From NCBI GenBank assembly GCA_900543885.1, contig UQTA01000001.1, positions 86,395-150,394 of the forward strand: a DNA stretch of 64,000 bases, read 5' to 3'. Shown one piece after another: positions 12,916-23,680 of this stretch. The translations under genes and the position numbers were made by a program. Numbering within the stretch: the first letter of the stretch is position 1; every line of letters starts with the position of its first letter. Origin of the DNA: an uncultured Clostridium sp. Its GTDB lineage: Bacteria > Bacillota > Clostridia > Lachnospirales > Lachnospiraceae. A model generated the notes under the pieces. It was not told where the DNA came from. It searched no databases and worked only from the letters and a program-made list of their open reading frames with translations.

Positions 12916-13080
12916 CTAGTATAATCCGCGATAATTACCGATCCCTTACACGCAGGATAAATTTTCATGTGCAAGGAAGCTGAATGAGGCGATGCCGGTA
13001 GCATCGTCGATTGAAGCTGACGCGGCAGATGGAAATTTAGACAAGTGAAAGGGGCGGATAATTATTGTGGATTATACTAG
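12916..13080. repeat. About 165 bp element bounded by 22-bp imperfect inverted repeats containing TATAAT boxes
   Basis: ctagtataatccgcgataatta (12916-12937) versus taattattgtggattatactag (13059-13080); GC-rich core with the palindrome gatgccggtagcatc. Confidence 0.4.
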
Positions 13081-13114: not shown

Positions 13115-13157
13115 GGGTAAAAAAACGCGTCCCCCGAAGGGACGCGTTTTCAACTGA
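13115..13157. terminator. Bidirectional rho-independent terminator (A-run, GC hairpin, T-run)
   Basis: aaaaaacgcgtcccccgaagggacgcgtttt; sits downstream of the minus-strand decarboxylase operon. Confidence 0.6.
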
Positions 13158-13262
13158 TGTGATCGTATTTTGACCTCTTTGATACCGGGTTCCAAGATCA
13201 AAAATCCTCTTGCAAGCAAGCTTGCATCGGATTTCAGACCTTTTGACCCTGGTATCATAAAA

Positions 13263-14675
13263 TTATACTGGATAAGCCTTATTCTCTTTATCTGCTACAG
13301 CAGCATCTACTTTCTTCTGCTGAGCTTCTCTGTACTGGAAGAACTCCTTGGCAACATTTGGGAACAGAGCGTAGCTTAATACGTCCTCATCCTGCTGTTT
13401 CCACTGAGCGCATTCCTTTTCAAACTGAGGCATCTGAGGTGCGATCAGATCTGCAGGTCTGCAGGTGATCGGAGTCTCATCGCCGATGATTTTCTTCTGT
13501 ACTTCTGGGTTAAATGGCTTAACAGTCTGACCAAATTCACCAAGCATGATCTTCTTGGATTCCTTTGGAACCATCTTGTAGCGCTCACCCATTAATACGT
13601 TAAGAACTGCCTGAGTACCAACGATCTGGGAAGAAGGTGTAACCAGAGGCGGCTCACCAAAGTCTTTACGAACTCTTGGGATTTCCTCCAGAACCTGCTG
13701 ATACTTGTCTTCCTGACCAGCTTCCTTTAACTGGCTAACCAGGTTGGAAAGCATACCGCCAGGTACCTGATACTGCAGAGTCTTGATATTTACGCCTAAT
13801 ACCTTTGGATTCAACAGACCGGTCTTTAATGCTTCTTCACGGATTGGCTGGAAGTGAGCAGCGATCTCTCCTAACAGCTTCTGATCATAACCGGTATCAT
13901 ATGGAGTACCGCGGAAGGTCTCTACCATAACTTCTGTAGCTGGCTGGCTGGTTCCCAGTGCCAGTGGAGACATAGCACAGTCAATAATATCGCAGCCTGC
14001 TTCTACAGCCTTCATATAGGTCATGGAAGCAACACCGGAAGTATAATGGGTGTGCAGATCGATTGGAAGTGTGGTTCCTTCCTTTAAAGCCTTAACTAAT
14101 TCAGTAGCCTTGTATGGAGTTAACAGACCTGCCATATCCTTGATACACAGAGAATCAGCTCCCATGTCTTCAATTCTCTTAGCAATGTCTCTCCAGTAAT
14201 CCAGAGTATAAGCATCACCTAAGGTGTAGCACAGTGCGATCTGAGCATGTCCTTTTTCCTTCTTTGTTGCCTTTACAGCAGTCTCCAGGTTACGGATATC
14301 GTTTAAGCAGTCGAAAATACGAATGATATCAATACCATTTGCAATAGATTTCTGTACGAAATATTCAACTACATCATCTGCATAGTGATTATATCCCAGG
14401 ATATTCTGTCCACGGAACAGCATCTGCAGCTTTGTGTTCTTAAATCCATCTCTTAACTTTCTTAAGCGCATCCATGGATCTTCTTTTAAGAAACGCAGGC
14501 AGGCATCAAATGTAGCGCCTCCCCAGCACTCTACTGCATGGTAGCCAACCTTATCCATCTTGTCTACGATAGGCAGCATCTGCTCTGTAGTCATTCTGGT
14601 AGCAAGTAAAGACTGATGTGCATCACGAAGGACGGTTTCCACGATCTTTACTGGCTTCTTCTCTATCTCTGCCAT
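13263..14675 (-). CDS. Biotin-dependent carboxyltransferase 5S subunit (oxaloacetate decarboxylase alpha / pyruvate carboxylase subunit B-like), lacking a C-terminal biotinyl domain
   Basis: VKIVETVLRDAHQSL..., HxH metal motif region, 470 aa (too short to include a biotin carrier domain). Confidence 0.85.
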   Translation of the reverse strand: MAEIEKKPVKIVETVLRDAHQSLLATRMTTEQMLPIVDKMDKVGYHAVECWGGATFDACLRFLKEDPWMRLRKLRDGFKNTKLQMLFRGQNILGYNHYADDVVEYFVQKSIANGIDIIRIFDCLNDIRNLETAVKATKKEKGHAQIALCYTLGDAYTLDYWRDIAKRIEDMGADSLCIKDMAGLLTPYKATELVKALKEGTTLPIDLHTHYTSGVASMTYMKAVEAGCDIIDCAMSPLALGTSQPATEVMVETFRGTPYDTGYDQKLLGEIAAHFQPIREEALKTGLLNPKVLGVNIKTLQYQVPGGMLSNLVSQLKEAGQEDKYQQVLEEIPRVRKDFGEPPLVTPSSQIVGTQAVLNVLMGERYKMVPKESKKIMLGEFGQTVKPFNPEVQKKIIGDETPITCRPADLIAPQMPQFEKECAQWKQQDEDVLSYALFPNVAKEFFQYREAQQKKVDAAVADKENKAYPV

Positions 14676-14741
14676 AGTTTAAATCCTCCTTAATAGGCAC
14701 CCGGTCTTATTCCAAAGACCAGGTGCAGTAAATGTTGGTTT

Positions 14742-15887
14742 TTATACACCGAAAATTGCCATAAAGGTACCGGCTGCTACTGCAGTACCGATAACACCTG
14801 CAACGTTTGGTCCCATTGCATGCATCAGCAGGAAGTTGGTAGGATCATATTCAGCACCAACCTTCTGGGATACACGGGCTGCCATAGGAACTGCGGATAC
14901 ACCTGCAGAACCGATCAGTGGGTTGATCTTTCCGCCAGTTACCTTGCATAAGATCTTTCCTAAGAGAACGCCGCCGATGGTTCCTACGCAGAATGCTACC
15001 AGACCTAAAATAACGATCTTGATAGTAGTTGCGTTTAAGAATGCCTCTGCACTGGTGGTTGCACCTACAGAAGTACCAAGCAGGATAACAACAATATACA
15101 TCATTGCATTGGAAGCGGTCTCCTGCAGCTGTTTTACAACGCCGCACTCACGGAACAGGTTACCTAACATCAGCATACCTACTAACGGAGCAGTAGATGG
15201 CAGGATCAGGCACACAACGATAGTAACGATGATCGGGAATAAGATCTTCTCCAGCTTGGATACGGAACGAAGCTGGGACATTTTGATCTTACGCTCCTTA
15301 TCAGTAGTAAGAAGCTTCATAAATGGCGGCTGGATGATCGGAACCAGAGCCATATAAGAGTAAGCTGCAACAGCGATTGGTCCCATGATCTGGGTCTGTC
15401 CTAACTTACTGCAAAGGAACAGGGAAGTAGGACCATCTGCACCACCGATAATGGAGATACAAGCTGCCTCTTTTCCTGAGAATCCTAACAGGATTGCGAA
15501 GAAATATGCAGAGTAAATACCTAACTGAGCTGCTGCACCCATCAGGAAGCTGATCGGGTTTGCGATCAGCGGACCAAAGTCTGTCATCGCACCTACGCCC
15601 ATGAAGATCAGGGACGGAAGGATACTCCACTCGTCCAGAGTGAAGAAGTAATACAGCAGACCGCCTACGCCGTTGGAAGTCTGTTCCGGAGAATACATGA
15701 TATCCGGATAGATATTTACAAGCAGCATACCAAATGCGATCGGGATCAGCAGCAGCGGCTCAAATCCCTTAGCGATCGCCAGGTATAAGAAGACCAGTGC
15801 TACACCGATCATAATGTAGTTTCCTGCAGTCAGATGAAAGAACGCCATCTGGCCAAGCAGGTTTGATACCAAATTGCCAAAATCCAT
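14742..15887 (-). CDS. Na+-translocating decarboxylase beta subunit (OadB/MmdB/GcdB family)
   Basis: 381-aa polytopic membrane protein with the OadB family pattern. Confidence 0.9.
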   Translation of the reverse strand: MDFGNLVSNLLGQMAFFHLTAGNYIMIGVALVFLYLAIAKGFEPLLLIPIAFGMLLVNIYPDIMYSPEQTSNGVGGLLYYFFTLDEWSILPSLIFMGVGAMTDFGPLIANPISFLMGAAAQLGIYSAYFFAILLGFSGKEAACISIIGGADGPTSLFLCSKLGQTQIMGPIAVAAYSYMALVPIIQPPFMKLLTTDKERKIKMSQLRSVSKLEKILFPIIVTIVVCLILPSTAPLVGMLMLGNLFRECGVVKQLQETASNAMMYIVVILLGTSVGATTSAEAFLNATTIKIVILGLVAFCVGTIGGVLLGKILCKVTGGKINPLIGSAGVSAVPMAARVSQKVGAEYDPTNFLLMHAMGPNVAGVIGTAVAAGTFMAIFGV

Positions 15888-15938
15888 AATGTTACCTCCA
15901 TAATGGAAACCTTAAAAATAAGGGGTCCATCTTGTTGA

Positions 15939-16310
15939 CTAGTTCAGAGTAGCTAAAACAGCGCCGGACTCAACTGCATCGCCATTTGCTACATTAATGC
16001 TGGCAATTGTACCATCTTCAGGAGCAACGATGTCGTTCTCCATCTTCATAGCTTCCAGAACCAGGACAACTTCGCCCTTCTTTACTGCCTGTCCTACAGA
16101 AGCCTTAACTGCAACTACTTTACCTGGCATTGGAGCGGTAACTTCAACAGATCCTGCTGCGCCAGCTGGTGCTGCTGCCGGAGCTGGAGCTGCTGCTGGT
16201 GCAGGTGCTGCAACTGGAGCTGCTGCTACTGGTGCTGCAGCTGCTGCTGCGCCCTCTTCAACGGTTACTGCATATGCTTTTCCATTTACTGTAATGGTAT
16301 ATGTCTTCAT
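15939..16310 (-). CDS. Biotin carboxyl carrier protein subunit with Ala/Pro-rich linker
   Basis: C-terminal biotinyl domain with the EAMKMEN motif; AAPVAAAP linker. Confidence 0.85.
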   Translation of the reverse strand: MKTYTITVNGKAYAVTVEEGAAAAAAPVAAAPVAAPAPAAAPAPAAAPAGAAGSVEVTAPMPGKVVAVKASVGQAVKKGEVVLVLEAMKMENDIVAPEDGTIASINVANGDAVESGAVLATLN

Positions 16311-16373
16311 AGTTTGTTTCCTCCTACTTGTTGTATAAGCACATAGATCGAATCAAGTCTTTATGTGCAGTGA

Positions 16374-17192
16374 TTATCTTCCCAGACCTACACGGCGGAT
16401 AGAACGTACTACCAGACCGTTGGATGAGGTGCTGCCTTCATATGCTGCAATAGCTGCTGTAATAACAGCTACTAATTCTGCATCACCAGAAAGATCAGGA
16501 CCGGTTACTGCAGGTGCTGCTGCTACTGGCTTAACAGCCGGAGCTGCTGCCTTTGGTGCAGGAGCAGGTGCTGCTGCTTTCTTCTTGCCTTCTTCCCATG
16601 CATGGATATACTTAAAGCATGAGATCAGGATGCTGATGAAAATCAGAACAAGGAATACAGTACCGATACCAATAACTGTATATACAGTAGCAGTCTTTAA
16701 CAGGGCTCCCATAGAAGTATCTTCTACAACGCCTGCAGACATATCTGTAAATTCAGCCTGGATCTGCTGAGTAGCCATGTTGATGTTCATCACATATTTC
16801 TTGGTTCCCTCTGTAAAATCAACAGGGATCACAACTGTATAGCTGCCATCTTCCAGAAGAACAACAGAACCTTCGTCCATGTTTACGTTCTTTAATTCGC
16901 CCATGTCCTCACGTGCTTCCAGCTGAGCTTCATAGATAGAAGCAGTTGCTTCATCACCGGTTGCCTCTGCCAGAGTTTTCTGAACGATCAGCTGATCCTT
17001 CGGTACGCCTAAGGTCTGTGCTGCAGAAAGCATGATGGACTGAGCCATGGCATCATCTACAGGAGTTCCGTCCATGCTGATGGTGGAACCGGTTTCTGTA
17101 TCCTGATTAGAAGAGCAGCCGGAAAGACTTACCAGGCATGCGGACAGAAGAACTGCTGCTGCCATTCTCTTTACAAATCGTCTCATATACAT
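16374..17192 (-). CDS. Lipoprotein fused to an OadG/MmdD-like sodium-pump decarboxylase gamma/delta subunit
   Basis: Lipobox LSGCSS; C-terminal TM helix + Ala/Pro-rich spacer + AELVAVITAAIAAY motif typical of OadG. Confidence 0.5.
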   Translation of the reverse strand: MYMRRFVKRMAAAVLLSACLVSLSGCSSNQDTETGSTISMDGTPVDDAMAQSIMLSAAQTLGVPKDQLIVQKTLAEATGDEATASIYEAQLEAREDMGELKNVNMDEGSVVLLEDGSYTVVIPVDFTEGTKKYVMNINMATQQIQAEFTDMSAGVVEDTSMGALLKTATVYTVIGIGTVFLVLIFISILISCFKYIHAWEEGKKKAAAPAPAPKAAAPAVKPVAAAPAVTGPDLSGDAELVAVITAAIAAYEGSTSSNGLVVRSIRRVGLGR

Positions 17193-17203
17193 GTCACCTC
17201 TCT

Positions 17204-18655
17204 TTAAACCGTGCCATGCTTCTTGGAAGGACGGTCCTCACTTTTTGTGTACAGCATCTCAAAAGCGGCGATCACTCTCTGACGGGTCTCTTCTGCCTTG
17301 ATGATGTCATCTACATAGCCTCTCTTTGCAGCAGCAACAGCGCCGGACTGCAGAGCGGTATATTCTGCGGTTTTCTCTTTGATCATTGCAACTGCGTCAT
17401 CAGCAGCTTCGATTTCTTTTGCGTACATGATCTTAACAGCTTCTGCCGGATCCATGGTACCGATCACTGCATTTGGCCAAGCGTAAACGATGTCTGCGCC
17501 CAGGCTCTTGCTGCCCATAGTAAGACCCGCACTGCCTAATGCATTCTTAACAACAACTGTTACCTTCGGTACAGTCGCATCTGCATATGCATAGGTCAGC
17601 TTAGCTGCTAACTTAGCGATCTTTCTTTCGCTGCACATAGTTGCACGGTATCCATTTACATTTACCAGAGTCAGAACAGGAATGCTGAATGCATCACAGA
17701 AATTGATGAAGTCAGCTGCCTTCTCACAGCCTTTTCCGCAAAGAGCTGCCTCTAAGGTCTGTACTTTCTCACCATTCTCATAAACTTCGCTGCGGTTAGC
17801 CACACAGCCAACTGTGCTTCCGTTTAAACGGATAAATCCAGTTACCATAGAAGCACCGTAGTTCTTCTTAACTTCCATAAAGAAGTTATTATCAGAGATC
17901 ATCTGTAAAGCTGCTGCAGTATCTCCGGTATATCCTTCGATACCAGTGCACATACGGTTTAAATCATCTGTGCAGTCAACTTCAGACAGATCTTCTTCAT
18001 TATTAGAAGGCAGAATAGATACCAGTGTGCGGATCTGAGATAATACAGAGGCTTCATCACCTGCAAAATCAACCAGACCGGATTCTTCTGACTGGAACTT
18101 AGCAGAAGAAGTATCACATTTTGCCTTATAGTTGCCCTCCAGAGCATTTGGGGAATTGACAAACAGTTTTGCAGAAGTATCTTCCATGAAAGTGAAATCT
18201 GCCATACCTGCACTAACAGCCATACCGCCGCCGCAGGTACCGAAAATTGCCATAATCTGAGGAATCACTCCAGATGCCATTGTCTGGCTTAAATACAGCT
18301 TTCCAAATCCATCCAGTGCGTCAGTTGCTTCCTGAAGACGCAGTCCTGCACAGTCTACCAGACCGATCACAGGTGCTCCCATCTTCATAGCCATAGAGTA
18401 GATGTTGCAGATCTTCTTTGCATGCATCTCACCCATGGAACCGCCCAGTACAGCAGCATCCTGGCTGTATACATATACCAGGCATCCGCCGATGGTACCG
18501 TAGCCGGTAACTACACCGTCAGCCGGTGTTTCCTGCTCAGTCATGTTAAAGTCAGTATTTCTCGCCGCAATATAGGCTCCGACTTCAACAAAACTGTTCT
18601 CATCAAGCAGGGCTGCTATACGGCTGCTTGCTGAAGTTTGTGCTGAATTACTCAT
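17204..18655 (-). CDS. Acyl-CoA carboxyltransferase alpha subunit (methylmalonyl-CoA decarboxylase MmdA / 12S-like)
   Basis: Carboxyl_trans domain (GGSMGEMHAKKI..., GLVDCAG); start placed at MSNS behind the RBS ggagga. Confidence 0.85.
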   Translation of the reverse strand: MSNSAQTSASSRIAALLDENSFVEVGAYIAARNTDFNMTEQETPADGVVTGYGTIGGCLVYVYSQDAAVLGGSMGEMHAKKICNIYSMAMKMGAPVIGLVDCAGLRLQEATDALDGFGKLYLSQTMASGVIPQIMAIFGTCGGGMAVSAGMADFTFMEDTSAKLFVNSPNALEGNYKAKCDTSSAKFQSEESGLVDFAGDEASVLSQIRTLVSILPSNNEEDLSEVDCTDDLNRMCTGIEGYTGDTAAALQMISDNNFFMEVKKNYGASMVTGFIRLNGSTVGCVANRSEVYENGEKVQTLEAALCGKGCEKAADFINFCDAFSIPVLTLVNVNGYRATMCSERKIAKLAAKLTYAYADATVPKVTVVVKNALGSAGLTMGSKSLGADIVYAWPNAVIGTMDPAEAVKIMYAKEIEAADDAVAMIKEKTAEYTALQSGAVAAAKRGYVDDIIKAEETRQRVIAAFEMLYTKSEDRPSKKHGTV

Positions 18656-18843
18656 TTTCCAGTCCTCCATCATTCTTAAGTTTACAGTATTTAGCGGAAA
18701 GCACATAAAAACAATGCTTTCTTATAAAATACAGAAATATTGCCGTTTATATTATAGTGATTTTTTTGTCAAATGGCAAGCATTTCCTTTTATTAAAGTT
18801 GTTTATTAATAAATTTTAAGATGCTTCTTTTCCTGAAATTTGA

Positions 18844-18872
18844 AAAAGCCCTGCCTATACGACAGGACTTTC
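18844..18872 (-). terminator. Rho-independent terminator downstream of the fumarate hydratase genes
   Basis: The minus strand reads agtcctgtcgtataggcagggc followed by ttttt. Confidence 0.5.
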
Positions 18873-18902
18873 TCTTTTCTTTATATGATCTTTTGCTGAT
18901 CC

Positions 18903-19529
18903 TTATTTAATAAAGCTTACATGTTTGCAGATCTCTTCGTAAACCTTTTCCTTCCGTTCATTAAACACAACCTTGTTTTCTTCAAACAGGTTTCTTCCTT
19001 CTGTGTCAATGGATACGATCAGCGGTCCGAATTCCTTCACACGGCAATTCCACAAAGTTTCCGGCATTCCCAGATCACGCCACTCTGCACGGACGATCCC
19101 TTCTACCTCAGTTGCAGCTACCACTGCATTTCCAGCAGGGAACACACAATGGATCGCCTTGAAATTCTTGCAGGCATATTCCGTATTTGGTCCCATGCCG
19201 CCTTTTCCTACGATCACTTTTACACCAGTCTGCTCTACAAATTCCTTCTCAAATTTTTCCATACGCATACTTGTGGTAGGACCTACAGAAACCATTTCAA
19301 ACTTGTCATCCCCTAAAGGACGGATGATGGGACCTGCATGGAAAATCGCATTATTTCTTACATCTACAGGCAATGGTCTGTGTTCTTCTACCAGACGGCG
19401 GTGAGCCACATCACGGCAGGTAGTTAAATTACCATTTAAGTAAATAATGTCACCGATATGGATATCTTTTAAATCTTCGTCACTGATTGGTGTTGTTAAA
19501 ATTTTCTTTCCATCTTTGATCTCTAACAT
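18903..19529 (-). CDS. Fe-S hydro-lyase, tartrate/fumarate subfamily, beta subunit (class I fumarate hydratase C-terminal domain)
   Basis: 208 aa with the beta-subunit pattern; stop/start overlap with the alpha subunit. Confidence 0.85.
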
Positions 19530-20428
19530 TATAAAGTCACCCCCGAATGAGTTGTAATTGTATAGTTAAGGTCCTTATCAAAAATAATATGGCCGCGACG
19601 ATGAGACCAGCATCCCACATTGACAGCTACACCAATGGTAGATGGATGTCTTGCTGTATTTTCAATATGTACGCCCATTACAGAGTACTTTCCTCCCATA
19701 CCCTGCGGTCCAAGGCCGATCTCATTGATTCCGTCTTCCAGAAGCTTCTCCATACTTGCAGCTCTCTCATTTTCATTGTGGCTGCCTAAAGGACGCATCA
19801 GGGCTTTCTTAGAAAGCAGAGCTGCTGTCTCTACAGAAGTAGCTACTCCGACACCTACTAACAGTGGCGGACATGCATTTAAGCCATAAGAAGTCATAAC
19901 ATCCAGTACGAAACGCGTAACTCCTTCATAACCTGCGCCTGGCATTAATACCATTGCTTTTCCAGGAAGTGTACAGCCGCCGCCTGCCATGTAAGCATAG
20001 ATCTCACATTTGTCGCTGTTTGGAACAATATCCCAGAATACAGTAGGCGTTCCCTTACCAACGTTCTTTCCTGTGTTGTACTCATCAAAAGTTTCTACGC
20101 TGTTGTGACGAAGAGGTGCGTCCACAGTTGCTCTTACTACAGCTTCCTTTAATAACGCTTCCAGATCATCGATCAGCGGGAATCTGGTTCCGCATTTTAC
20201 CCAGAACTGCAGTACACCGGTATCCTGGCAAGAAGGACGATTTAATTTTACTGCCAGATCCTGATTACGCTTCATGGTCTGATAAATTACTTTTGATAAT
20301 GGGCTGTCTTCCTTTTCTGCCAGTTCATCTAACTTGGCAATAATGTCATCCGGCAATTTCTTACCGATATGGGCAACAAAGTGCGCCATATAATTGGTAA
20401 GCTGCTCTACCTGTTCTGTTCTGCTCAT
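19529..20428 (-). CDS. Fe-S hydro-lyase, tartrate/fumarate subfamily, alpha subunit (class I fumarate hydratase N-terminal domain)
   Basis: 299 aa; conserved Cys ligands (CQDTG...), typical FumA/TtdA alpha. Confidence 0.85.
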
Positions 20429-20493
20429 TTCATATCCTCCTTAAAATATAAGTAATGTGTATTCATGGTTTATTAACTGTTCCACCATCTCAT

Positions 20494-21135
20494 TTACGGA
20501 AAAAATGGAAATGCAATGGGTAAAAGGATCATACTGACTGCAGTTGCGATAAAAATAAGGGGCAGTCCTGATTTCGTATAATCCAAAAAGCTGTAGCCGC
20601 CGGCTCCAAGTACCATGGTATTTGCCGGCATACCGATAGGTGTTGCATATGCACAGGAACCACCGATGACGCAGGCCATCAGCACTGCTCTCGGATCAGC
20701 TCCCATAGCTGCTGCAAATACCAACGGCATCAGAAGCCTGGAACGTGAATAGCCTGATTTTGCTGCAATACCGATCACAACCGGGATCAGTACTGCCGCT
20801 GTACCTGTGTTTGAAAGAACGCCGCTCATCACACCTACGATGATCATAACAGCCGCGATCAGCATTCTTTCTGATTTGGCAAATTTTGTAACAATACCAC
20901 CGATCTTATTAGCCATACCTGTTTCAAAAAATGCGCCGCCTACAATAAACATTGCTACAAAGAGAATTACATTGCTGTCAATAAAACCGGCAAATGCCGT
21001 CTTCGCATCCAGGACCCCGGTAACGACCAGACCTACACAAACGATCATGGAAGTTACCCCCAGCGGGATTTTCTCCAATACGAACATTACGATCGCAAAC
21101 AGGAGAAAAAGGATGGTTATAGTTGATGGACTCAT
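20494..21135 (-). CDS. DASS/SLC13-like anion permease of only 213 aa: both hairpin motifs present (SNTG, PANT) but the central region is absent; internally deleted gene or mini-transporter
   Basis: N-terminus resembles the DASS TM1-HP1 region and the C-terminus resembles HP2 plus the last TM; full-length homologs are 450-600 aa. Confidence 0.45.
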   Translation of the reverse strand: MSPSTITILFLLFAIVMFVLEKIPLGVTSMIVCVGLVVTGVLDAKTAFAGFIDSNVILFVAMFIVGGAFFETGMANKIGGIVTKFAKSERMLIAAVMIIVGVMSGVLSNTGTAAVLIPVVIGIAAKSGYSRSRLLMPLVFAAAMGADPRAVLMACVIGGSCAYATPIGMPANTMVLGAGGYSFLDYTKSGLPLIFIATAVSMILLPIAFPFFP

Positions 21136-21182
21136 AAACTCCCCCTTTGGTTTTATAAAACTGTATGAACCTTATTCATTTA

Positions 21183-21375
21183 CTATGAAAGTCCCGGACG
21201 GCAGCCGCGAATGAGCCATGCTTGCATGAGCGAATTCACGGGTATCGGACGGGCAAGCCGGTATGAGCAAGGAGCGCGATAGCGCGGATTGCGAATGCTG
21301 GCGACGATTGCGGGAGCACCAAAGGTGCGGAGCAATCGGCTTTCATGAATGGTGATGCCTGCGTCAGCAGGCATG
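21183..21375. repeat. GC-rich REP-like element with short palindromic units
   Basis: gagcgcgatagcgcgg (21272-21287) and gcctgcgtcagcaggc (21357-21372) recur as gagcgcgcagcgcgg / gcctgcggcagcaggc at 1076-1106; the GC content is far above that of the flanks. Confidence 0.45.
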
Positions 21376-21387
21376 TCCGTTTAGTTA

Positions 21388-21440
21388 CAGTTCAGCCTGG
21401 CATCTTCTTGACCGCTCGCAGCGGACAAGAAGATGCCAGC
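21388..21440. repeat. Partial copy of the 151-bp palindromic MITE-like repeat (left terminus + core palindrome)
   Basis: gttacagttcagcc...cttcttgaccgctcgcagcggacaagaag. Confidence 0.5.
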
Positions 21441-21646
21441 CAGAGCACGTATGTTTTGCAGCTGCTGTCCTGGATCATTATTTGATATTTTATATTTGAT
21501 ATTTAATAATGTATCCATTTCATGTTTTTATAATAAAACAGAACACCTTGATTGTCAATGGTCATTTAACAATTCGGCGTTCTGCATACTCTTTTTGATA
21601 TTTTATTGTATGTTTTTTATAATACAACGTTTTACTAGTTATTCTA

Positions 21647-22288
21647 CTAATAACGGGTAAGAACATCATTCATGCTTCGCATAATGTGAGCCACCATTTT
21701 CTCCCCTGCAAGCTTCGGACCCTGACTTTCCAGAGCTGCCAGGATCTGTCTGTGTTCTGCCTGAGAATTGCGAGCATATTCTTCTTCTGTAGATTTTAAT
21801 CCCATGGAAAGACCATTCCACATCTCAGACAACATTGTCTTCAGCTTTTCATTTCCTGCTGCTGTCCAGATCTCATAGTGGAATGACTGGTTATAGTTAG
21901 AATAACTGCCTGAATCTCTTCGTTCCAGTGCCTCATCTGCCATTTCCACACAGTTTCGTATTGCAGAAAGGTCCGCCTTTTTCTGGCAACATAACACACA
22001 GGCTGCACTTTCCAGCGCCGCTCTTATTTCATAGTGTTCCCGGATCGTTGTCTCATTTAATCCCAGAACAGTTGCTCCTTTGTTCTGCCTTAAATCAATA
22101 AGTCCATCTCTTGCCAGTATCTGAAATGCCTCCCGCACCGGTGTAACAGATACACCTAACTGCTGTGCTGTGGATTCCAGTGTAATCACTTCTCCCTCTG
22201 TTATCTGCTTTGAGATAATAGCCTTGCGCAGCGCAGAAGCCACCCGTTCTCTTGCAGGCAGCAATTTAATTGGTTTTAATGTAACCAT
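21647..22288 (-). CDS. GntR family transcriptional regulator (FadR/FCD C-terminal domain)
   Basis: wHTH LESTAQQLGVSVTPVREAFQILARDGLI; 213 aa. Confidence 0.8.
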   Translation of the reverse strand: MVTLKPIKLLPARERVASALRKAIISKQITEGEVITLESTAQQLGVSVTPVREAFQILARDGLIDLRQNKGATVLGLNETTIREHYEIRAALESAACVLCCQKKADLSAIRNCVEMADEALERRDSGSYSNYNQSFHYEIWTAAGNEKLKTMLSEMWNGLSMGLKSTEEEYARNSQAEHRQILAALESQGPKLAGEKMVAHIMRSMNDVLTRY

Positions 22289-22342
22289 ACTTTTTAATCC
22301 CTTCTTTTACCAGGTCTTTATGGCTGACCGGCTGTTTTTTGT

Positions 22343-23023
22343 CTATTTCCCTTCATGCATAGCTTCCAGCTTTACTGCCATTTTTTCAAAATATTCCTCC
22401 AGCTGTCTGGCTCCATCTTCTTTCTTTCCTGACTTCCAGTTTCCTATGCTTTTTTCTAACAGGATCTCTTCTTCTGTTTTTTCTGCTTTCCTTCCCCATA
22501 CACCTTCCGGATTACGCCTGGAAATCACAAAATATAAGTAAATCTCCGTTATCGTTTCCAGATTTTTTCTTGATAAGCTATAGGGATAATTTCTCCAGAT
22601 TGCACGGTGAAAATTCAATTCCTCTTCCGGAAGGGCTTTTAGCTCTTCCTCATCCAGATTCTGCAAAAATTCTTTTTCCAGCCCGGCACCTGTTTTTAAA
22701 ATATGATGAAAATAAGCTTCTGTAAAAGAAGCTACCCGTACATGATTATTAGGCAGACGATCGATCAGCCCCTGATATTCTAACAGGATCAACGCTTCTC
22801 TTACCGGCATCCGGGATACTCCCAGACTTTCTGCCAGTTCATTCTGGGTCATCTCACTGCCGTCTGGTATATTTCCCGCCAGTATCTCATCACGGAGAAG
22901 TTCTACAATACTGCCTTGTTTCTTTTTATTCCCGATATATTCCATTCTGTCTTTCCCTTTCTGCCTGTCAAACAAGATTCGCAATGTGCCTTTGCTGCCC
23001 GCTTTCAGGCACACCACTGCCAT
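22343..23023 (-). CDS. GntR family transcriptional regulator (second paralog); the true start may be the internal Met MEYIGNKKK
   Basis: wHTH ELAESLGVSRMPVREALILLEYQGLI. Confidence 0.75.
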   Translation of the reverse strand: MAVVCLKAGSKGTLRILFDRQKGKDRMEYIGNKKKQGSIVELLRDEILAGNIPDGSEMTQNELAESLGVSRMPVREALILLEYQGLIDRLPNNHVRVASFTEAYFHHILKTGAGLEKEFLQNLDEEELKALPEEELNFHRAIWRNYPYSLSRKNLETITEIYLYFVISRRNPEGVWGRKAEKTEEEILLEKSIGNWKSGKKEDGARQLEEYFEKMAVKLEAMHEGK

Positions 23024-23050
23024 ACTGCATCAAACATCCGACCAGACATA

Positions 23051-23680
23051 TTACTGCAGTTTTTTCTTAAAATATCCTTCTGCGCAGTAAATAGCACCAC
23101 ATGGATTATGTGCCAGCACACGGTCTTTGGCAACCAGCGTAGTCACCATAGGTTTTGAATATTTATAAAACATAGAATCATGTCCCACGCAAAGTCCCAG
23201 TGCAATATTAAATTCGGTTTCCTGTGAATTTAAAAATTCTGCCTGGGCGATGGGATTGCACATTGGCTCAAAGGCATCTGCATGGATTTTTCCTTCTTTG
23301 GGAATGCCTGCTGTTTCTTTCGGAAAACCGCCTGTCTTACAGATCACAGATACCACATCAAATCCGTGCTCTGTAAAAAGATCTGCCACAATACGTGCCT
23401 CTTTACGAAGTCCCTTACAAAATGCCAGTCCTATTTTCTTATATCCCATTTTTTTACAAAATTCCACTGTTTCTTTTAATCTTGGCCACTGGCAATATCC
23501 TTCTCCCTCAATAGAAGAAGATTTTACATAAAATTCATGGTTCTCTTCCAACCCATATTTTTCTAAAGCGCCGCCCATTTTTTCTTTTTCCCGCATGGGA
23601 CAGTTTTTAGGCATCTTTTCCCGCAGCGCAGGATCATCTGACGCGCAGGCTAAAACATTACATTTTGCACAGGTATACAT
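23051..23680 (-). CDS. DUF1847-family Cys-rich (probable metal-binding) protein
   Basis: 209 aa with multiple CxxC-like cysteines (CAKCNVLAC, CPMREK, CQWP, CKTGG, CGAIYC); resembles DUF1847 proteins of Clostridia and archaea. Confidence 0.55.
   Translation of the reverse strand: MYTCAKCNVLACASDDPALREKMPKNCPMREKEKMGGALEKYGLEENHEFYVKSSSIEGEGYCQWPRLKETVEFCKKMGYKKIGLAFCKGLRKEARIVADLFTEHGFDVVSVICKTGGFPKETAGIPKEGKIHADAFEPMCNPIAQAEFLNSQETEFNIALGLCVGHDSMFYKYSKPMVTTLVAKDRVLAHNPCGAIYCAEGYFKKKLQ

What the first reader, a model, noticed from the sequence alone, without database searches (positions are those of the whole stretch)
13263..18655. Hybrid Na+-pump decarboxylase cluster combining 12S-type and 5S-type carboxyltransferases around one biotin carrier
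The gene order on the minus strand is: acyl-CoA carboxyltransferase (MmdA-like), OadG-like subunit, free biotin carrier, OadB-like beta subunit, then a 5S oxaloacetate/pyruvate-type carboxyltransferase with no biotinyl domain of its own. The pairing of 12S, 5S and 1.3S-like subunits recalls Propionibacterium transcarboxylase, yet it is embedded in a membrane sodium-pump context. The complex might therefore act on both methylmalonyl-CoA and oxaloacetate, or run transcarboxylation coupled to the pump. The adjacent fumarate hydratase genes point to a succinate/propionate-type pathway.
Basis: partly seen in the sequence, partly recalled or inferred. Interest (0 to 1): 0.55.

Follow-up and report, generated by a model that had tools for sequence, protein, structure and literature searches.

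The report
Two-carboxyltransferase sodium-pump decarboxylase operon
This is a real five-gene operon for a sodium-pumping, biotin-dependent oxaloacetate decarboxylase that also carries a second, acyl-CoA-type carboxyltransferase; it is common in gut Lachnospiraceae, sits here next to tartrate-breakdown genes, and what the second enzyme does has not been worked out.

Summary
On the minus strand, 13263-18655 encodes a 12S-type carboxyltransferase (CT), an OadG-like anchor, a free biotin carrier, OadB, and a 5S/OadA-type carboxyltransferase with no biotin domain. They form one unit with a promoter-like site upstream and a terminator downstream.

- The neighbouring "fumarate hydratase" genes are L(+)-tartrate dehydratase TtdAB. 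They make oxaloacetate, so they do not indicate a succinate/propionate pathway.
- The CT is not an MmdA. It scores 464 bits against a cut-off of 999, and its active-site motifs are remodelled.
- The layout is not peculiar to this genome. The same order occurs in 62 of 80 related species loci (Enterocloster, Lacrimispora, Hungatella) and in more distant relatives, including Blautia, down to about 41% CT identity.
- Other lineages place it beside a tartrate operon or citrate lyase genes. Some variants lack OadB.

Best reading: a clostridial-type Na+-translocating oxaloacetate decarboxylase built on a transcarboxylase-like core. The CT is an obligatory subunit and probably a second carboxyl-exchange site. 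A Clostridium thermocellum metabolic model treats that organism's similarly composed, OadB-less cluster as a putative malonyl-CoA-forming transcarboxylase. I found no biochemical study. New variant of a known kind; moderate interest.

The parts
18751..18779 (-). Promoter-like site (TTGCCA, 17 nt, TATAAT) for the five-gene operon. A conserved leader of about 95 nt follows, down to the CT start codon.
   Evidence: 11 of 12 consensus matches; the promoter and leader sequence are conserved upstream of the CT gene across Enterocloster, Lacrimispora and Hungatella loci; no Rfam match in the leader.
17204..18655 (-). 12S-type (acyl-CoA-type) carboxyltransferase, 483 aa. It lacks the N-terminal extension of about 25 residues seen in canonical enzymes, and its active-site motifs are remodelled.
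   Evidence: Carboxyl_trans E 3.6e-108; TIGR01117 464 bits against cut-off 998.8; best solved-structure hit 1vrg at 366 bits, 12S (1on3) at 328 bits; motif analysis; omega 0.07-0.13 in most comparisons (one of six gave 0.02 with dS about 6, heavily saturated); gene callers place the start at 18655.
16374..17192 (-). OadG-like membrane anchor, 270-272 aa. Order of features: lipoprotein signal (LSGC), an outside domain of about 110 aa with a DUF3887/NTF2-like fold, one TM helix, an Ala/Pro linker, and a conserved C-terminal tail (AELVAVITAAIAAY...GLVVRSIRR).
   Evidence: OAD_gamma and TIGR01195 hit residues 163-255 only; alignment of 39 sequences. AF2 pLDDT about 84 for residues 40-150; best PDB match is the DUF3887 protein 4hyz.
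15939..16310 (-). Free biotin carboxyl carrier, 123 aa. It has the N-terminal MKxYxITVNGxxYxVTVEE peptide, an Ala/Pro linker and the EAMKME biotinylation motif.
   Evidence: Biotin_lipoyl hit; the best NCBIfam match is MmdC (NF047903) at 114 bits, below its cut-off of 200; both the N-terminal peptide and the biotinylation motif are conserved in the prevalent forms among 79 distinct orthologues.
14742..15887 (-). OadB, the Na+-translocating carboxybiotin decarboxylase beta subunit, 381 aa.
   Evidence: OAD_beta E 2.6e-152; TIGR01109 474 bits, cut-off 190.6; aligns with Salmonella OadB (6iva_A) at 380 bits, with the IIGGADGPT, AAYSYMALVP and NPLIGSAGVSAVPMAAR segments intact.
13263..14675 (-). 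5S/OadA-type oxaloacetate:biotin carboxyltransferase, 470 aa, with no biotin domain and a conserved C-terminal K(A/T)YPV.
   Evidence: NF008985 766 bits, cut-off 718; 5ks8_C 496 bits, Vibrio OadA (2nx9) 488 bits, transcarboxylase 5S (1rqb) 444 bits. The alignments show LRDAHQS, IKDMAG and LHTHYTSG identical or nearly identical; on my recollection of the Vibrio OadA and 5S structures, these segments hold the metal-binding residues and the carbamylated lysine; lengths and C-terminal motif across orthologues.
13119..13150 (-). Intrinsic terminator after the last gene: aaaacgcgtccc-ttcg-ggggacgcgtttttttt.
   Evidence: Read directly from the sequence. The consensus scan did not list it.
18903..20428 (-). 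L(+)-tartrate dehydratase TtdA (19529-20428) and TtdB (18903-19529). This is the upstream, separately transcribed supplier of oxaloacetate.
   Evidence: NF006084 547 bits (cut-off 365) and NF006082 374 bits (cut-off 264); a terminator-like hairpin at about 18842-18874 (dG -25.8 kcal/mol, z -8.4) followed by a U-run, directly after the ttdB stop codon.
20494..23680 (-). Remainder of the tartrate module: half-size SLC13/CitMHS-type permease (20494-21135), GntR/FCD regulator (21647-22288), GntR regulator (22343-23023) and a DUF1847 protein (23051-23680).
   Evidence: The module sits between aspartate kinase and the CT gene only in the closest relatives, L001-L010. In 20 other loci aspartate kinase lies directly upstream of the CT gene (cluster 5).

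Best explanation
The operon encodes a clostridial-type, five-subunit Na+-translocating oxaloacetate decarboxylase assembled on a transcarboxylase-like soluble module.

Proposed steps:
1. In this organism L-tartrate is dehydrated to oxaloacetate by the adjacent TtdAB. In other species the oxaloacetate comes from citrate lyase or from central metabolism.
2. The 5S/OadA-type subunit moves the carboxyl group of oxaloacetate onto the biotin of the free carrier protein and releases pyruvate.
3. OadB decarboxylates the carboxybiotin and exports Na+.

The 12S-type CT is an obligatory member of the complex.
- It probably forms the oligomeric core, to which the carrier's conserved N-terminal peptide and OadA attach, as 12S does in Propionibacterium transcarboxylase.
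- It is probably tethered to OadB by the cytoplasmic tail of the OadG-like anchor, as the alpha subunits of methylmalonyl-CoA and glutaconyl-CoA decarboxylases are.
- I also think it keeps a second carboxyl-transfer site. Carboxybiotin could then be exchanged with an acyl-CoA pool, most plausibly acetyl-CoA/malonyl-CoA, as a side branch of the pump.

Shown here: gene content, operon structure, intact catalytic or pump motifs in OadA, OadB and the carrier, conservation, and repeated linkage to oxaloacetate-producing genes.

Inferred: the assembly, the Na+ coupling, and any catalysis by the CT.
For: Components and operon:
- Family assignments and intact motifs for OadA, OadB and the carrier.
- One promoter-to-terminator unit.

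Conservation:
- All five genes in the same order in 62 of 80 species loci.
- The same order in Blautia luti and in four deeper lineages down to 41% CT identity, usually in housekeeping synteny (ScpAB, RluB ... RpiR, HI0933-like, cmk, ispH).

Three separate links to oxaloacetate producers:
- ttdAB in the window.
- A lineage with one GntR-GntR-CT-x-BCCP-OadA-OadB-x-TtdA-TtdB-CitMHS array.
- citXDEFG directly after oadA in L074.

The CT as an integral subunit:
- It is always the first gene. In the window it ends 11-17 nt before the anchor gene, and the spacing is similarly short in most other loci.
- Omega is 0.07-0.13 in most comparisons, like OadB.
- Its N-domain motifs are invariant in 81 orthologues.
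- All eleven non-canonical CTs whose context was read (window included) lie with a carrier gene. In nine of them, every case where the contig reaches that far, a 5S-type gene is also present. The one canonical-motif relative sampled lies next to a biotin carboxylase subunit.

Literature:
- Na+-pumping OAD serves citrate and tartrate fermentation (PMC8100219).
- Enterococcus faecalis has an OAD with a biotin-less OadA plus a separate carrier, OadD (PMC6193673).
- Gamma/delta subunits link the alpha subunit to beta (PMC7145394).
Against: - No biochemical data exist for this or any orthologous complex in the literature I could search.
- E. faecalis makes a working OAD without any 12S-type subunit, so the CT is not needed in principle.
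- The CT's biotin-side (C-domain) motifs are remodelled: G375 to S/T, and G402, P338-G339 and G350 are lost. It also evolves 2-3 times faster than OadA. Both fit a non-catalytic scaffold as well as they fit an altered enzyme.
- Six loci lack OadB in the operon (five keep the anchor gene; L094 lacks that too), so pumping is not universal to the module.
Confidence: 0.45

Rival explanations
1. The module is mainly an ATP-free transcarboxylase. Its housekeeping role is oxaloacetate + acetyl-CoA -> pyruvate + malonyl-CoA for fatty-acid synthesis. OadB is an added outlet that decarboxylates surplus carboxybiotin and conserves energy when oxaloacetate is abundant, for example on tartrate or citrate.
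For: - The constant core is CT + carrier + 5S. OadB, and sometimes the anchor, can be absent at the same syntenic locus.
- The operon sits among housekeeping genes in most lineages rather than in substrate-specific islands.
- A C. thermocellum genome-scale model assigns that organism's similarly composed cluster, Clo1313_1523-1526, as a putative malonyl-CoA-forming transcarboxylase, because the organism lacks a standard acetyl-CoA carboxylase; the same paper states that OAD activity was not detected (PMC5414155).
- The position aligned with the PccB specificity residue D422 is a hydrophobic Leu, invariant in 81 sequences. As I recall, hydrophobic residues at this site go with acceptance of acetyl-CoA.
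Against: - I could not test whether these genomes lack accABCD or a biotin carboxylase.
- In L092 the CT lies inside a dedicated tartrate-catabolism gene array, and in L074 the cluster lies next to citrate lyase. A biosynthetic enzyme has no obvious place there.
- Canonical residues around the biotin site are lost.
Confidence: 0.2
2. The 12S-type CT is a non-catalytic scaffold (a pseudoenzyme). It only organises the free carrier and the biotin-less OadA and docks them to OadB through the anchor. Under this reading the complex is a plain oxaloacetate decarboxylase pump.
For: - Of 146 sites that are at least 90% conserved in canonical PCC-beta-type representatives, the window CT keeps 91.
- The losses are clade-wide and cluster at the classic motifs: G103, Y147, G183/G184, P338-G339, G350, G375 and G402.
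- In deeper members even the PG[FY] glycine is replaced by E, S or R.
- The CT diverges 2-3 times faster than OadA.
- The operon's repeated linkage to tartrate and citrate catabolism needs only OAD activity.
Against: - Within the Enterocloster/Lacrimispora/Hungatella group the motif residues are strictly invariant: DCAGLRLQEA, FGxCGGGMAV, E343, G374 and A376. That is more than a scaffold would seem to need.
- Omega is as low as for OadB.
- The oxyanion holes use backbone amides (my recollection of the PccB and 12S structures), so a G-to-S/T change need not inactivate the site.
- A 50-kDa subunit that forms hexamers is an expensive scaffold, and E. faecalis manages with the small OadH.
Confidence: 0.2
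3. One reading: a dual-input pump. The CT feeds carboxyl groups from (S)-methylmalonyl-CoA, or malonyl-CoA, into the same carrier and OadB, so the complex is a methylmalonyl-CoA decarboxylase and an oxaloacetate decarboxylase at once, as part of a succinate-to-propionate route.
For: - The gene order CT-anchor-carrier-beta is that of mmd operons (my recollection of the Veillonella and Propionigenium operons).
- The carrier's best NCBIfam match is MmdC.
- The CT belongs to the PCC-beta/MmdA/12S superfamily.
Against: - TIGR01117 (mmdA) scores 464 bits against a cut-off of 998.8.
- The supposed fumarase genes are tartrate dehydratase.
- No methylmalonyl-CoA mutase or epimerase genes appear in the neighbourhoods read.
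- From my own knowledge (Reichardt et al. 2014), the host genera are not succinate-pathway propionate producers, and mmdA-type propionate pathways in the gut belong to Bacteroidetes and Negativicutes.
Confidence: 0.08

Closest known systems
Enterococcus faecalis membrane oxaloacetate decarboxylase OadA/OadB/OadD/OadH (cit locus; PMC6193673, PMC3198936, PMC8100219)
   Same: - It is from a Firmicute.
- Its carboxyltransferase OadA and the biotin acceptor OadD are separate subunits, as OadA and the carrier are here.
- It has an OadB Na+ pump and a small subunit that functions like OadG.
- It is linked to an oxaloacetate-producing pathway (citrate lyase).
- The window OadA passes the NF008985 cut-off.
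   Different: - The enterococcal enzyme has no 12S-type carboxyltransferase.
- Its fourth subunit is the small OadH, whereas here the anchor carries a lipoprotein signal and an extra outside domain.
- Its genes are scattered through the cit operon rather than forming a fixed five-gene block.
Enterobacterial/Vibrio oxaloacetate decarboxylase OadGAB, including the Salmonella copy used in tartrate fermentation (structures 6iva/6iww and 2nx9; PMC7274780, PMC8100219)
   Same: - OadB aligns at 380 bits with its pump motifs intact.
- The OadA carboxyltransferase domain aligns at 488 bits.
- It serves the same physiological pairing with citrate or tartrate breakdown.
   Different: - According to PMC7145394, the enterobacterial alpha subunit carries its own C-terminal biotin carrier domain and a short peptide that binds the gamma subunit. 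Here the carrier is a separate protein.
- As I recall, the enterobacterial gamma tail contains histidines that bind Zn. The tail here (AAIAAYEGS...VVRSIRR) has none.
- The enterobacterial enzyme has no 12S-type subunit.
Na+-translocating methylmalonyl-CoA decarboxylase MmdABCDE of Veillonella parvula and Propionigenium modestum, and glutaconyl-CoA decarboxylase GcdABCD (PMC7145394)
   Same: - They share the order CT (alpha), small anchor, free biotin carrier, beta subunit.
- The carrier has an N-terminal peptide and an Ala/Pro linker.
- The anchor has one TM helix, an Ala/Pro linker and a cytoplasmic tail.
   Different: - Those enzymes have no 5S/OadA-type subunit.
- The CT here fails the MmdA model (464 bits against 998.8) and matches GcdA only weakly (81 bits).
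- The CT's active-site motifs are remodelled.
Propionibacterium freudenreichii methylmalonyl-CoA:pyruvate transcarboxylase (12S, 5S, 1.3S; structures 1on3, 1rqb)
   Same: - It uses the same three soluble parts.
- The window CT aligns with 12S at 328 bits and the window OadA with 5S at 444 bits.
- The carrier's N-terminus, MKTYTITVNGKAYAVTVEE, resembles the 1.3S N-terminus (MKLKVTVNGTAYDVDVDV, from memory), which I recall holding 12S and 5S together.
   Different: - Transcarboxylase is soluble and has no beta or gamma subunits.
- The window proteins score below the equivalog cut-offs: 5S NF008984 at 553 bits against 827.
- The host organisms are not propionate fermenters.
Clostridium thermocellum Clo1313_1523-1526 (Cthe_0699-0701) and the 'oaadc' clusters listed for Caldicellulosiruptor, C. 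cellulolyticum and C. phytofermentans (PMC3561251, PMC5887222, PMC5414155)
   Same: The cluster contains a putative oxaloacetate decarboxylase gene (Clo1313_1523) and a sodium-pump gamma subunit gene (Clo1313_1525). As I recall its annotation, it also contains a carboxyl transferase and a biotin protein. It is annotated as an oxaloacetate decarboxylase and, in one metabolic model, as a putative transcarboxylase that makes malonyl-CoA. It resembles the OadB-less variants found here (L067, L070, L073, L074, L075).
   Different: - As I recall, it has no OadB, whereas the window has an intact one.
- I could not fetch those sequences, so orthology with the window CT is not tested.
- Those assignments come from annotation and modelling, not enzymology.

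Membership tests
Na+-translocating biotin-dependent decarboxylases (Oad/Mmd/Gcd class) | An integral-membrane beta subunit (OAD_beta) with the conserved Asp, Tyr, Asn, Ser and Arg pump residues. | tested here: met
   TIGR01109 474 bits, cut-off 190.6. The alignment to Salmonella OadB (6iva_A) keeps the IIGGADGPT, AAYSYMALVP and NPLIGSAGVSAVPMAAR segments.
Na+-translocating biotin-dependent decarboxylases (Oad/Mmd/Gcd class) | A small single-TM gamma/delta anchor with an Ala/Pro linker and a cytoplasmic tail. | tested here: met
   OAD_gamma E 8e-22; TIGR01195 43 bits, cut-off 36. The TM helix, linker and tail are conserved in 39 sequences. An extra N-terminal lipoprotein domain is not typical of the family.
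Na+-translocating biotin-dependent decarboxylases (Oad/Mmd/Gcd class) | Na+-dependent, avidin-sensitive decarboxylation coupled to Na+ export. | not testable with these tools
   This needs enzymology and proteoliposome transport assays.
Oxaloacetate decarboxylase alpha subunit, enterobacterial type (TIGR01108) | An alpha chain with the carboxyltransferase domain, an association domain and a C-terminal biotinyl domain in one polypeptide. | tested here: not met
   TIGR01108 660 bits, below its cut-off of 756.5, matching profile positions 1-453 of 582 only. No AMKM motif in the window protein or in 67 orthologues.
Oxaloacetate decarboxylase alpha subunit, short biotin-less type (NF008985) | A protein of about 465 aa that scores above the curated cut-off and retains the conserved catalytic segments. 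| tested here: met
   766 bits, cut-off 718. LRDAHQS, IKDMAG and LHTHYTSG are conserved in the alignments to 5ks8 and 2nx9. Caveat: the 5S-type protein of the pump-less cluster in L094 also passes (780 bits), so membership does not prove a pump-coupled role.
Methylmalonyl-CoA decarboxylase alpha subunit MmdA (TIGR01117) | A score above the curated cut-off, with the canonical acyl-CoA carboxyltransferase motifs. | tested here: not met
   464 bits against a cut-off of 998.8. DSGGARIQE is replaced by DCAGLRLQE, YGGAY by LGSAG, and QExGGIIRHGAK by SER-KIAKLAAK.
Methylmalonyl-CoA:pyruvate transcarboxylase (12S/5S/1.3S) | All three soluble subunit types are encoded together. | tested here: met
   Carboxyl_trans, Biotin_lipoyl and PYC_OADA/HMGL-like genes lie in one operon.
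Methylmalonyl-CoA:pyruvate transcarboxylase (12S/5S/1.3S) | The 5S subunit scores at equivalog level (NF008984). | tested here: not met
   553 bits against a cut-off of 827.
Methylmalonyl-CoA:pyruvate transcarboxylase (12S/5S/1.3S) | A soluble complex with no membrane subunits that catalyses carboxyl transfer between an acyl-CoA and pyruvate. | tested here: inconclusive
   Membrane subunits (the anchor and OadB) are encoded inside the operon. Variants at the same locus lack OadB or both membrane subunits. The activity itself cannot be tested here.
L(+)-tartrate dehydratase TtdAB (neighbouring genes) | Alpha and beta subunits both score above the equivalog cut-offs. | tested here: met
   NF006084 547 bits (cut-off 365) and NF006082 374 bits (cut-off 264). 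The fumarate hydratase models fall below their cut-offs: 235 bits against 276, and 170 bits against 269.

The most novel reading that the evidence does not exclude
The complex is a membrane-coupled transcarboxylase hub. One swinging carboxybiotin serves three stations: OadA (oxaloacetate/pyruvate), the remodelled 12S-type CT (acetyl-CoA/malonyl-CoA or another acyl-CoA), and OadB (CO2 plus Na+ export). Abundant gut Lachnospiraceae such as Blautia, Enterocloster, Lacrimispora and Hungatella would then make malonyl-CoA without ATP from oxaloacetate. Because these pumps are reversible in vitro (Dimroth and Hilpert 1984, from memory), the same organisms might even carboxylate at the expense of the Na+ gradient. 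That would partly or wholly replace acetyl-CoA carboxylase.
Probability: 0.2. Interest if true: 0.8.

Novelty: new variant of a known kind. Interest (0 to 1): 0.5.

Why it matters
Three kinds of Na+-pumping biotin decarboxylases acting on oxaloacetate or acyl-CoA thioesters are textbook cases (oxaloacetate, methylmalonyl-CoA, glutaconyl-CoA), alongside malonate decarboxylase, and transcarboxylase is a fourth, soluble relative. This operon joins the parts of a pump and a transcarboxylase in one unit. It is not a rarity. It is conserved across a large part of the Lachnospiraceae and related Clostridia, which are major members of the human gut flora.

If the second carboxyltransferase is active, these bacteria have an ATP-free route between oxaloacetate and an acyl-CoA that is wired to a sodium pump. 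That would change how their energy budget, fatty-acid synthesis and organic-acid use (tartrate, citrate) are modelled.

If it is inactive, it is a clear case of an enzyme turned into a scaffold.

Either outcome can be tested directly with a purified complex. It would also correct current piecemeal annotations, in which the CT is named 'acyl-CoA carboxylase subunit beta' and the neighbouring tartrate dehydratase genes register only as fumarase-type domains.

Tried and rejected
- **Succinate/propionate context.** Rejected. The 'fumarase' genes are TtdAB, and no mutase or epimerase genes appear in any neighbourhood read.
- **GcdA-type glutaconyl-CoA decarboxylase.** Rejected. The match is only 81 bits.
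- **Riboswitch or known RNA in the conserved leader upstream of the CT gene.** No Rfam hit.
- **cre or Rex operators upstream of the operon in 81 loci.** None beyond chance: one loose cre match.
- **Biotin carboxylase (AccC) in the window and about 1.5 Mb of held loci.** No hit. The key question, whether these genomes lack acetyl-CoA carboxylase, therefore stays open.
- **Structure prediction of the anchor using orthologues taken from the loci.** Repeated with database homologues.
- **Literature.** I found only annotation tables and one modelling assumption for C. thermocellum.
- **PDB.** No close structure for the CT (best 366 bits, T. maritima PCC beta) or for the anchor.
- **dN/dS.** Computed, but synonymous sites are saturated (dS about 1-2). 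Only the conclusion 'strong purifying selection' is used.

Full report
**1. The observation**

The minus strand between 13263 and 18655 carries five consecutive ORFs. Pfam and NCBIfam assign them as follows:
- CT, 17204-18655: Carboxyl_trans, E 3.6e-108.
- Anchor, 16374-17192: OAD_gamma, E 8e-22, confined to residues 167-252.
- Biotin carrier, 15939-16310: Biotin_lipoyl, E 8e-21, with the EAMKME motif.
- OadB, 14742-15887: OAD_beta, E 2.6e-152; TIGR01109 474 bits against a cut-off of 190.6.
- 5S/OadA-type protein, 13263-14675: PYC_OADA plus HMGL-like.

The last protein is 470 aa and has no biotinyl domain. None of 67 distinct orthologues contains an AMKM motif. Independent gene calls on six metagenome contigs give the same genes and the same CT start at 18655.

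**2. Transcription units**

- Gaps between the five genes are 11-66 nt, and no terminator-like site was found on that strand.
- Directly after the ttdB stop there is a strong hairpin followed by a U-run (dG -25.8 kcal/mol; shuffles average -8.6; z -8.4).
- Next comes a TTGCCA-17-TATAAT site at 18779..18751.
- After the last gene lies a textbook terminator, aaaacgcgtccc-ttcg-ggggacgcgtttttttt, at about 13150-13119.

The five genes are thus one operon. The upstream dehydratase genes are a separate unit. The promoter and a leader of about 100 nt are conserved across genera. The leader matches no Rfam family.

**3. What the neighbours really are**

The two genes read as fumarate hydratase pass the equivalog models for L(+)-tartrate dehydratase: TtdA 547 bits (cut-off 365) and TtdB 374 bits (cut-off 264). 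They fall below the fumarase cut-offs. Tartrate dehydratase produces oxaloacetate. Upstream lie an SLC13/CitMHS-type permease gene and two GntR-type regulators. The context is therefore tartrate to oxaloacetate to pyruvate, the classical setting of an oxaloacetate decarboxylase pump (PMC8100219). It is not a succinate/propionate route.

**4. The individual subunits**

- **OadB.** It aligns with the Salmonella beta subunit (6iva_A, 380 bits) with the conserved pump segments intact.
- **5S-type protein.** It scores 496 bits to a two-subunit pyruvate carboxylase beta chain (5ks8), 488 bits to Vibrio OadA (2nx9) and 444 bits to transcarboxylase 5S (1rqb). Three conserved segments (LRDAHQS, IKDMAG, LHTHYTSG) are retained. 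It passes NF008985, 'oxaloacetate decarboxylase subunit alpha', whose profile is 465 positions long (766 bits, cut-off 718). It fails the transcarboxylase 5S model (553 bits, cut-off 827). That name does not settle function, because the 5S-type protein of a pump-less cluster passes too (780 bits).
- **Carrier.** It has the N-terminal peptide MKxYxITVNGxxYxVTVEE, conserved in the prevalent forms among 79 distinct orthologues. From memory, this resembles the N-terminus of the 1.3S subunit, which ties 12S and 5S together in transcarboxylase.
- **Anchor.** It is unusual. It has a lipoprotein signal, an outside domain of about 110 aa, one TM helix, an Ala/Pro linker and a strongly conserved tail, (A/L)ELVAVITAAIAA...GLVVRSIRR. 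The outside domain is modelled with pLDDT about 84. Its best solved match is a DUF3887 protein of Ruminococcus gnavus (Foldseek probability 0.99, E 0.013). Short anchors without this domain occur in other lineages.

**5. The 12S-type carboxyltransferase**

It belongs to the PCC-beta/MmdA/12S superfamily: 366 bits to Thermotoga 1vrg, 328 bits to 12S (1on3), and only 81 bits to GcdA. It reaches just 464 bits on the MmdA model, whose cut-off is 998.8.

It lacks the usual N-terminal extension of about 25 residues, and its motifs differ from the canon:

| Canonical motif | Window CT |
|---|---|
| DSGGARIQE | DCAGLRLQE |
| GPCAGGAVYS | GTCGGGMAVS |
| VDTPGYLPG | VNVNGYRAT |
| QEHGGIIRHGAK | SER-KIAKLAAK |
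| KAYGGAY | NALGSAG |

.

These replacements are fixed within 81 orthologues. There D101-A110, F138-G139, C141-V147, G335-Y336, E343, A372, G374 and A376 are invariant.

An exhaustive search of 1.84 billion cluster representatives places the protein in a large, fast-evolving radiation of non-canonical CTs. The canonical motif set reappears only at about 40% identity.

Of 146 sites conserved in at least 90% of ten canonical representatives, the window keeps 91. Losses across the whole clade include G103, Y147, G183/G184, P338-G339, G350, G375 (to S/T) and G402.

The gene is under strong purifying selection (omega 0.07-0.13 in most comparisons, similar to OadB; synonymous sites are saturated). 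It nevertheless diverges 2-3 times faster than OadA: 41-60% identity against 61-81% in distant loci.

**6. How widespread the arrangement is**

A scan of one genome per GTDB species found 336 relatives. The best 80 are Enterocloster, Lacrimispora, Hungatella and unnamed Lachnospiraceae. The window itself is nearest to Clostridium sp. AM22-11AC at 99%.
- 62 of the 80 loci have all five genes in the same order.
- 13 are incomplete: 12 are cut by contig ends, and in L059 no oadA match was found.
- Five (L067, L070, L073, L074, L075) have CT-anchor-carrier-OadA without OadB.

Contexts of more distant CTs:
- Blautia luti (60-62% CT identity), Candidatus Fimousia (about 50%) and four further lineages (41-55%) again show CT-anchor-carrier-OadB-OadA.
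- One lineage has only CT-carrier-5S at the same syntenic place.
- Two short contigs show CT-anchor-carrier before they end.
- The one canonical-motif relative sampled sits next to a biotin carboxylase subunit, so it is a true ATP-dependent carboxylase.

A remodelled CT therefore goes with a 5S-type partner and the absence of a biotin carboxylase gene next door.

**7. Genomic neighbourhoods**

In most species the flanks are housekeeping genes: PBP5-type carboxypeptidase, aspartate kinase, ScpAB, RluB, RpiR, an HI0933-like protein, cmk and ispH. In the window's closest relatives only (L001-L010), the tartrate module lies between aspartate kinase and the CT gene.

Two other lineages link the module to oxaloacetate producers:
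- L092 has GntR-GntR-CT-x-carrier-OadA-OadB-x-TtdA-TtdB-CitMHS as one array. Its TtdA scores 506 bits and its TtdB 393 bits, both above cut-off.
- L074 has citX, citD, citE, citF and citG immediately after oadA.

Recurrent linkage to tartrate and citrate breakdown argues that oxaloacetate is the physiological carboxyl donor. It also argues that the CT travels with the decarboxylase even in dedicated catabolic gene arrays.

**8. Mechanism**

I commit to the following.
1. OadA carboxylates the carrier's biotin from oxaloacetate.
2. OadB decarboxylates the carboxybiotin and pumps Na+.
3. The CT is an integral subunit that forms the core. The carrier's N-terminal peptide and OadA bind to it. The anchor's cytoplasmic tail docks it to the membrane.

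The first two steps follow from family membership and intact motifs. The assembly is inferred by analogy with transcarboxylase (my own knowledge) and with Mmd and Gcd (PMC7145394).

Whether the CT also catalyses carboxyl transfer is open. I lean towards a retained second site that exchanges the carboxyl group with an acyl-CoA. My reasons are that the motif residues are invariant within the group and that pump-less CT-carrier-5S versions exist.

The most concrete candidate reaction is oxaloacetate + acetyl-CoA = pyruvate + malonyl-CoA. This is the role a genome-scale model gave to a similarly composed cluster in C. thermocellum, Clo1313_1523-1526. That organism is said to lack a standard acetyl-CoA carboxylase, and oxaloacetate decarboxylase activity was not detected there (PMC5414155; cluster annotation in PMC3561251 and PMC5887222).

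**9. Rivals**

- **Housekeeping transcarboxylase, with the pump as an outlet.** Supported by synteny and by the OadB-less variants. Weakened by the catabolic arrays and by the lost canonical residues.
- **Pure scaffold.** Supported by the clade-wide loss of canonical glycines and prolines and by the CT's faster evolution. Weakened by strict motif invariance within the group and by the cost of a 50-kDa subunit, given that E. faecalis does without one (PMC6193673).
This has the least support. The MmdA model fails, the 'fumarase' cue was wrong, and no mutase or epimerase genes appear in any neighbourhood.

**10. Comparison with known systems and novelty**

The nearest characterised enzyme is the E. 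faecalis OadA/B/D/H complex. It shares the biotin-less OadA and the separate carrier, but it has no 12S-type subunit. Mmd and Gcd share the CT-anchor-carrier-beta layout but have no 5S-type subunit. Transcarboxylase shares the three soluble parts but has no membrane subunits.

The window's complex combines all of these. It is a new variant of a known kind rather than something categorically new. At the level of annotation it has already been noticed in cellulolytic clostridia.

I found no enzymology or close solved structure for it. Its wide distribution in dominant gut Firmicutes and its unexplained second carboxyltransferase make it a worthwhile biochemical target, with moderate interest.

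**11. Limits**

I could not determine whether the host genomes lack acetyl-CoA carboxylase, which is the single most informative computational test. I could not fetch the C. thermocellum sequences to prove orthology. Statements about the PccB/12S oxyanion-hole residues, the role of the 1.3S N-terminus, the reversibility of the pumps, and the distribution of propionate pathways rest on my own knowledge, not on tool results.

Noticed in passing
window 21186-21345 (+) and window 13180-13257 (-): A full-length Clostridiales-1 RNA (RF01699; 121 bits, gathering score 48) lies between the promoter-like site of the tartrate module and the permease gene, on the opposite strand. A weak partial match (44 bits, just below gathering) sits directly after the oadA stop, inside a long hairpin. 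Together the two flank the permease-ttdAB-decarboxylase block.
   Followed up: partly
window 20494-21135 (-); L007 5869-7134: The permease gene of the tartrate module is only 213 aa and matches the first half of the CitMHS profile. The sister strain has a 421-aa protein, and both of its halves match the window protein (73% and 46% identity). Half-size homologues of 194-240 aa occur on long contigs in several Firmicutes. This looks like a genuine half-size transporter family rather than a truncation.
   Followed up: partly
window 16374-17192 (-), residues 1-160 of the protein: The OadG-like anchor has a lipoprotein signal (LSGC) and an extracytoplasmic domain of about 110 aa with an NTF2-like, DUF3887-type fold (AF2 pLDDT about 84; PDB 4hyz, Foldseek probability 0.99). 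This domain is variable (23-72% identity outside the closest relatives) and is absent from the short anchors of L074, L085, L089, L090 and L093. Its role is unknown.
   Followed up: partly
window 18656-18750 (-), and upstream of the CT gene in L007-L086: The 5' leader of the operon is conserved from Enterocloster to Hungatella and Lacrimispora...TATAAT.GGCAG.AATT..., a variable hairpin, then AAAATGGAGGAYTGSAAAATG. It matches no Rfam family, and I saw no cre or Rex site. It could be an unrecognised regulatory leader.
   Followed up: partly
window 13263-21135 compared with L007 and L006: The ttdAB-to-oadA block is 99-100% identical at protein level between the window and Clostridium sp. AM22-11AC, apart from the anchor (94%) and the carrier (87%). 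The genes just upstream are only 73-93% identical. One metagenome contig (L006) carries the same block with different upstream genes (LysR, SNF transporter). This suggests either recent exchange of the block or an assembly join at a repeat.
   Followed up: no
L036, L009, L060 (record titles): Contigs carrying this Lachnospiraceae-type operon are labelled as Bacteroides thetaiotaomicron, Agathobaculum and Paenibacillaceae MAGs. These are probably binning errors.
   Followed up: no
window 12916-12951 and 13045-13080: A 36-nt inverted repeat (81% complementary, arms 93 nt apart) lies between the operon's terminator and the downstream response-regulator gene. Its meaning is unknown.
   Followed up: no
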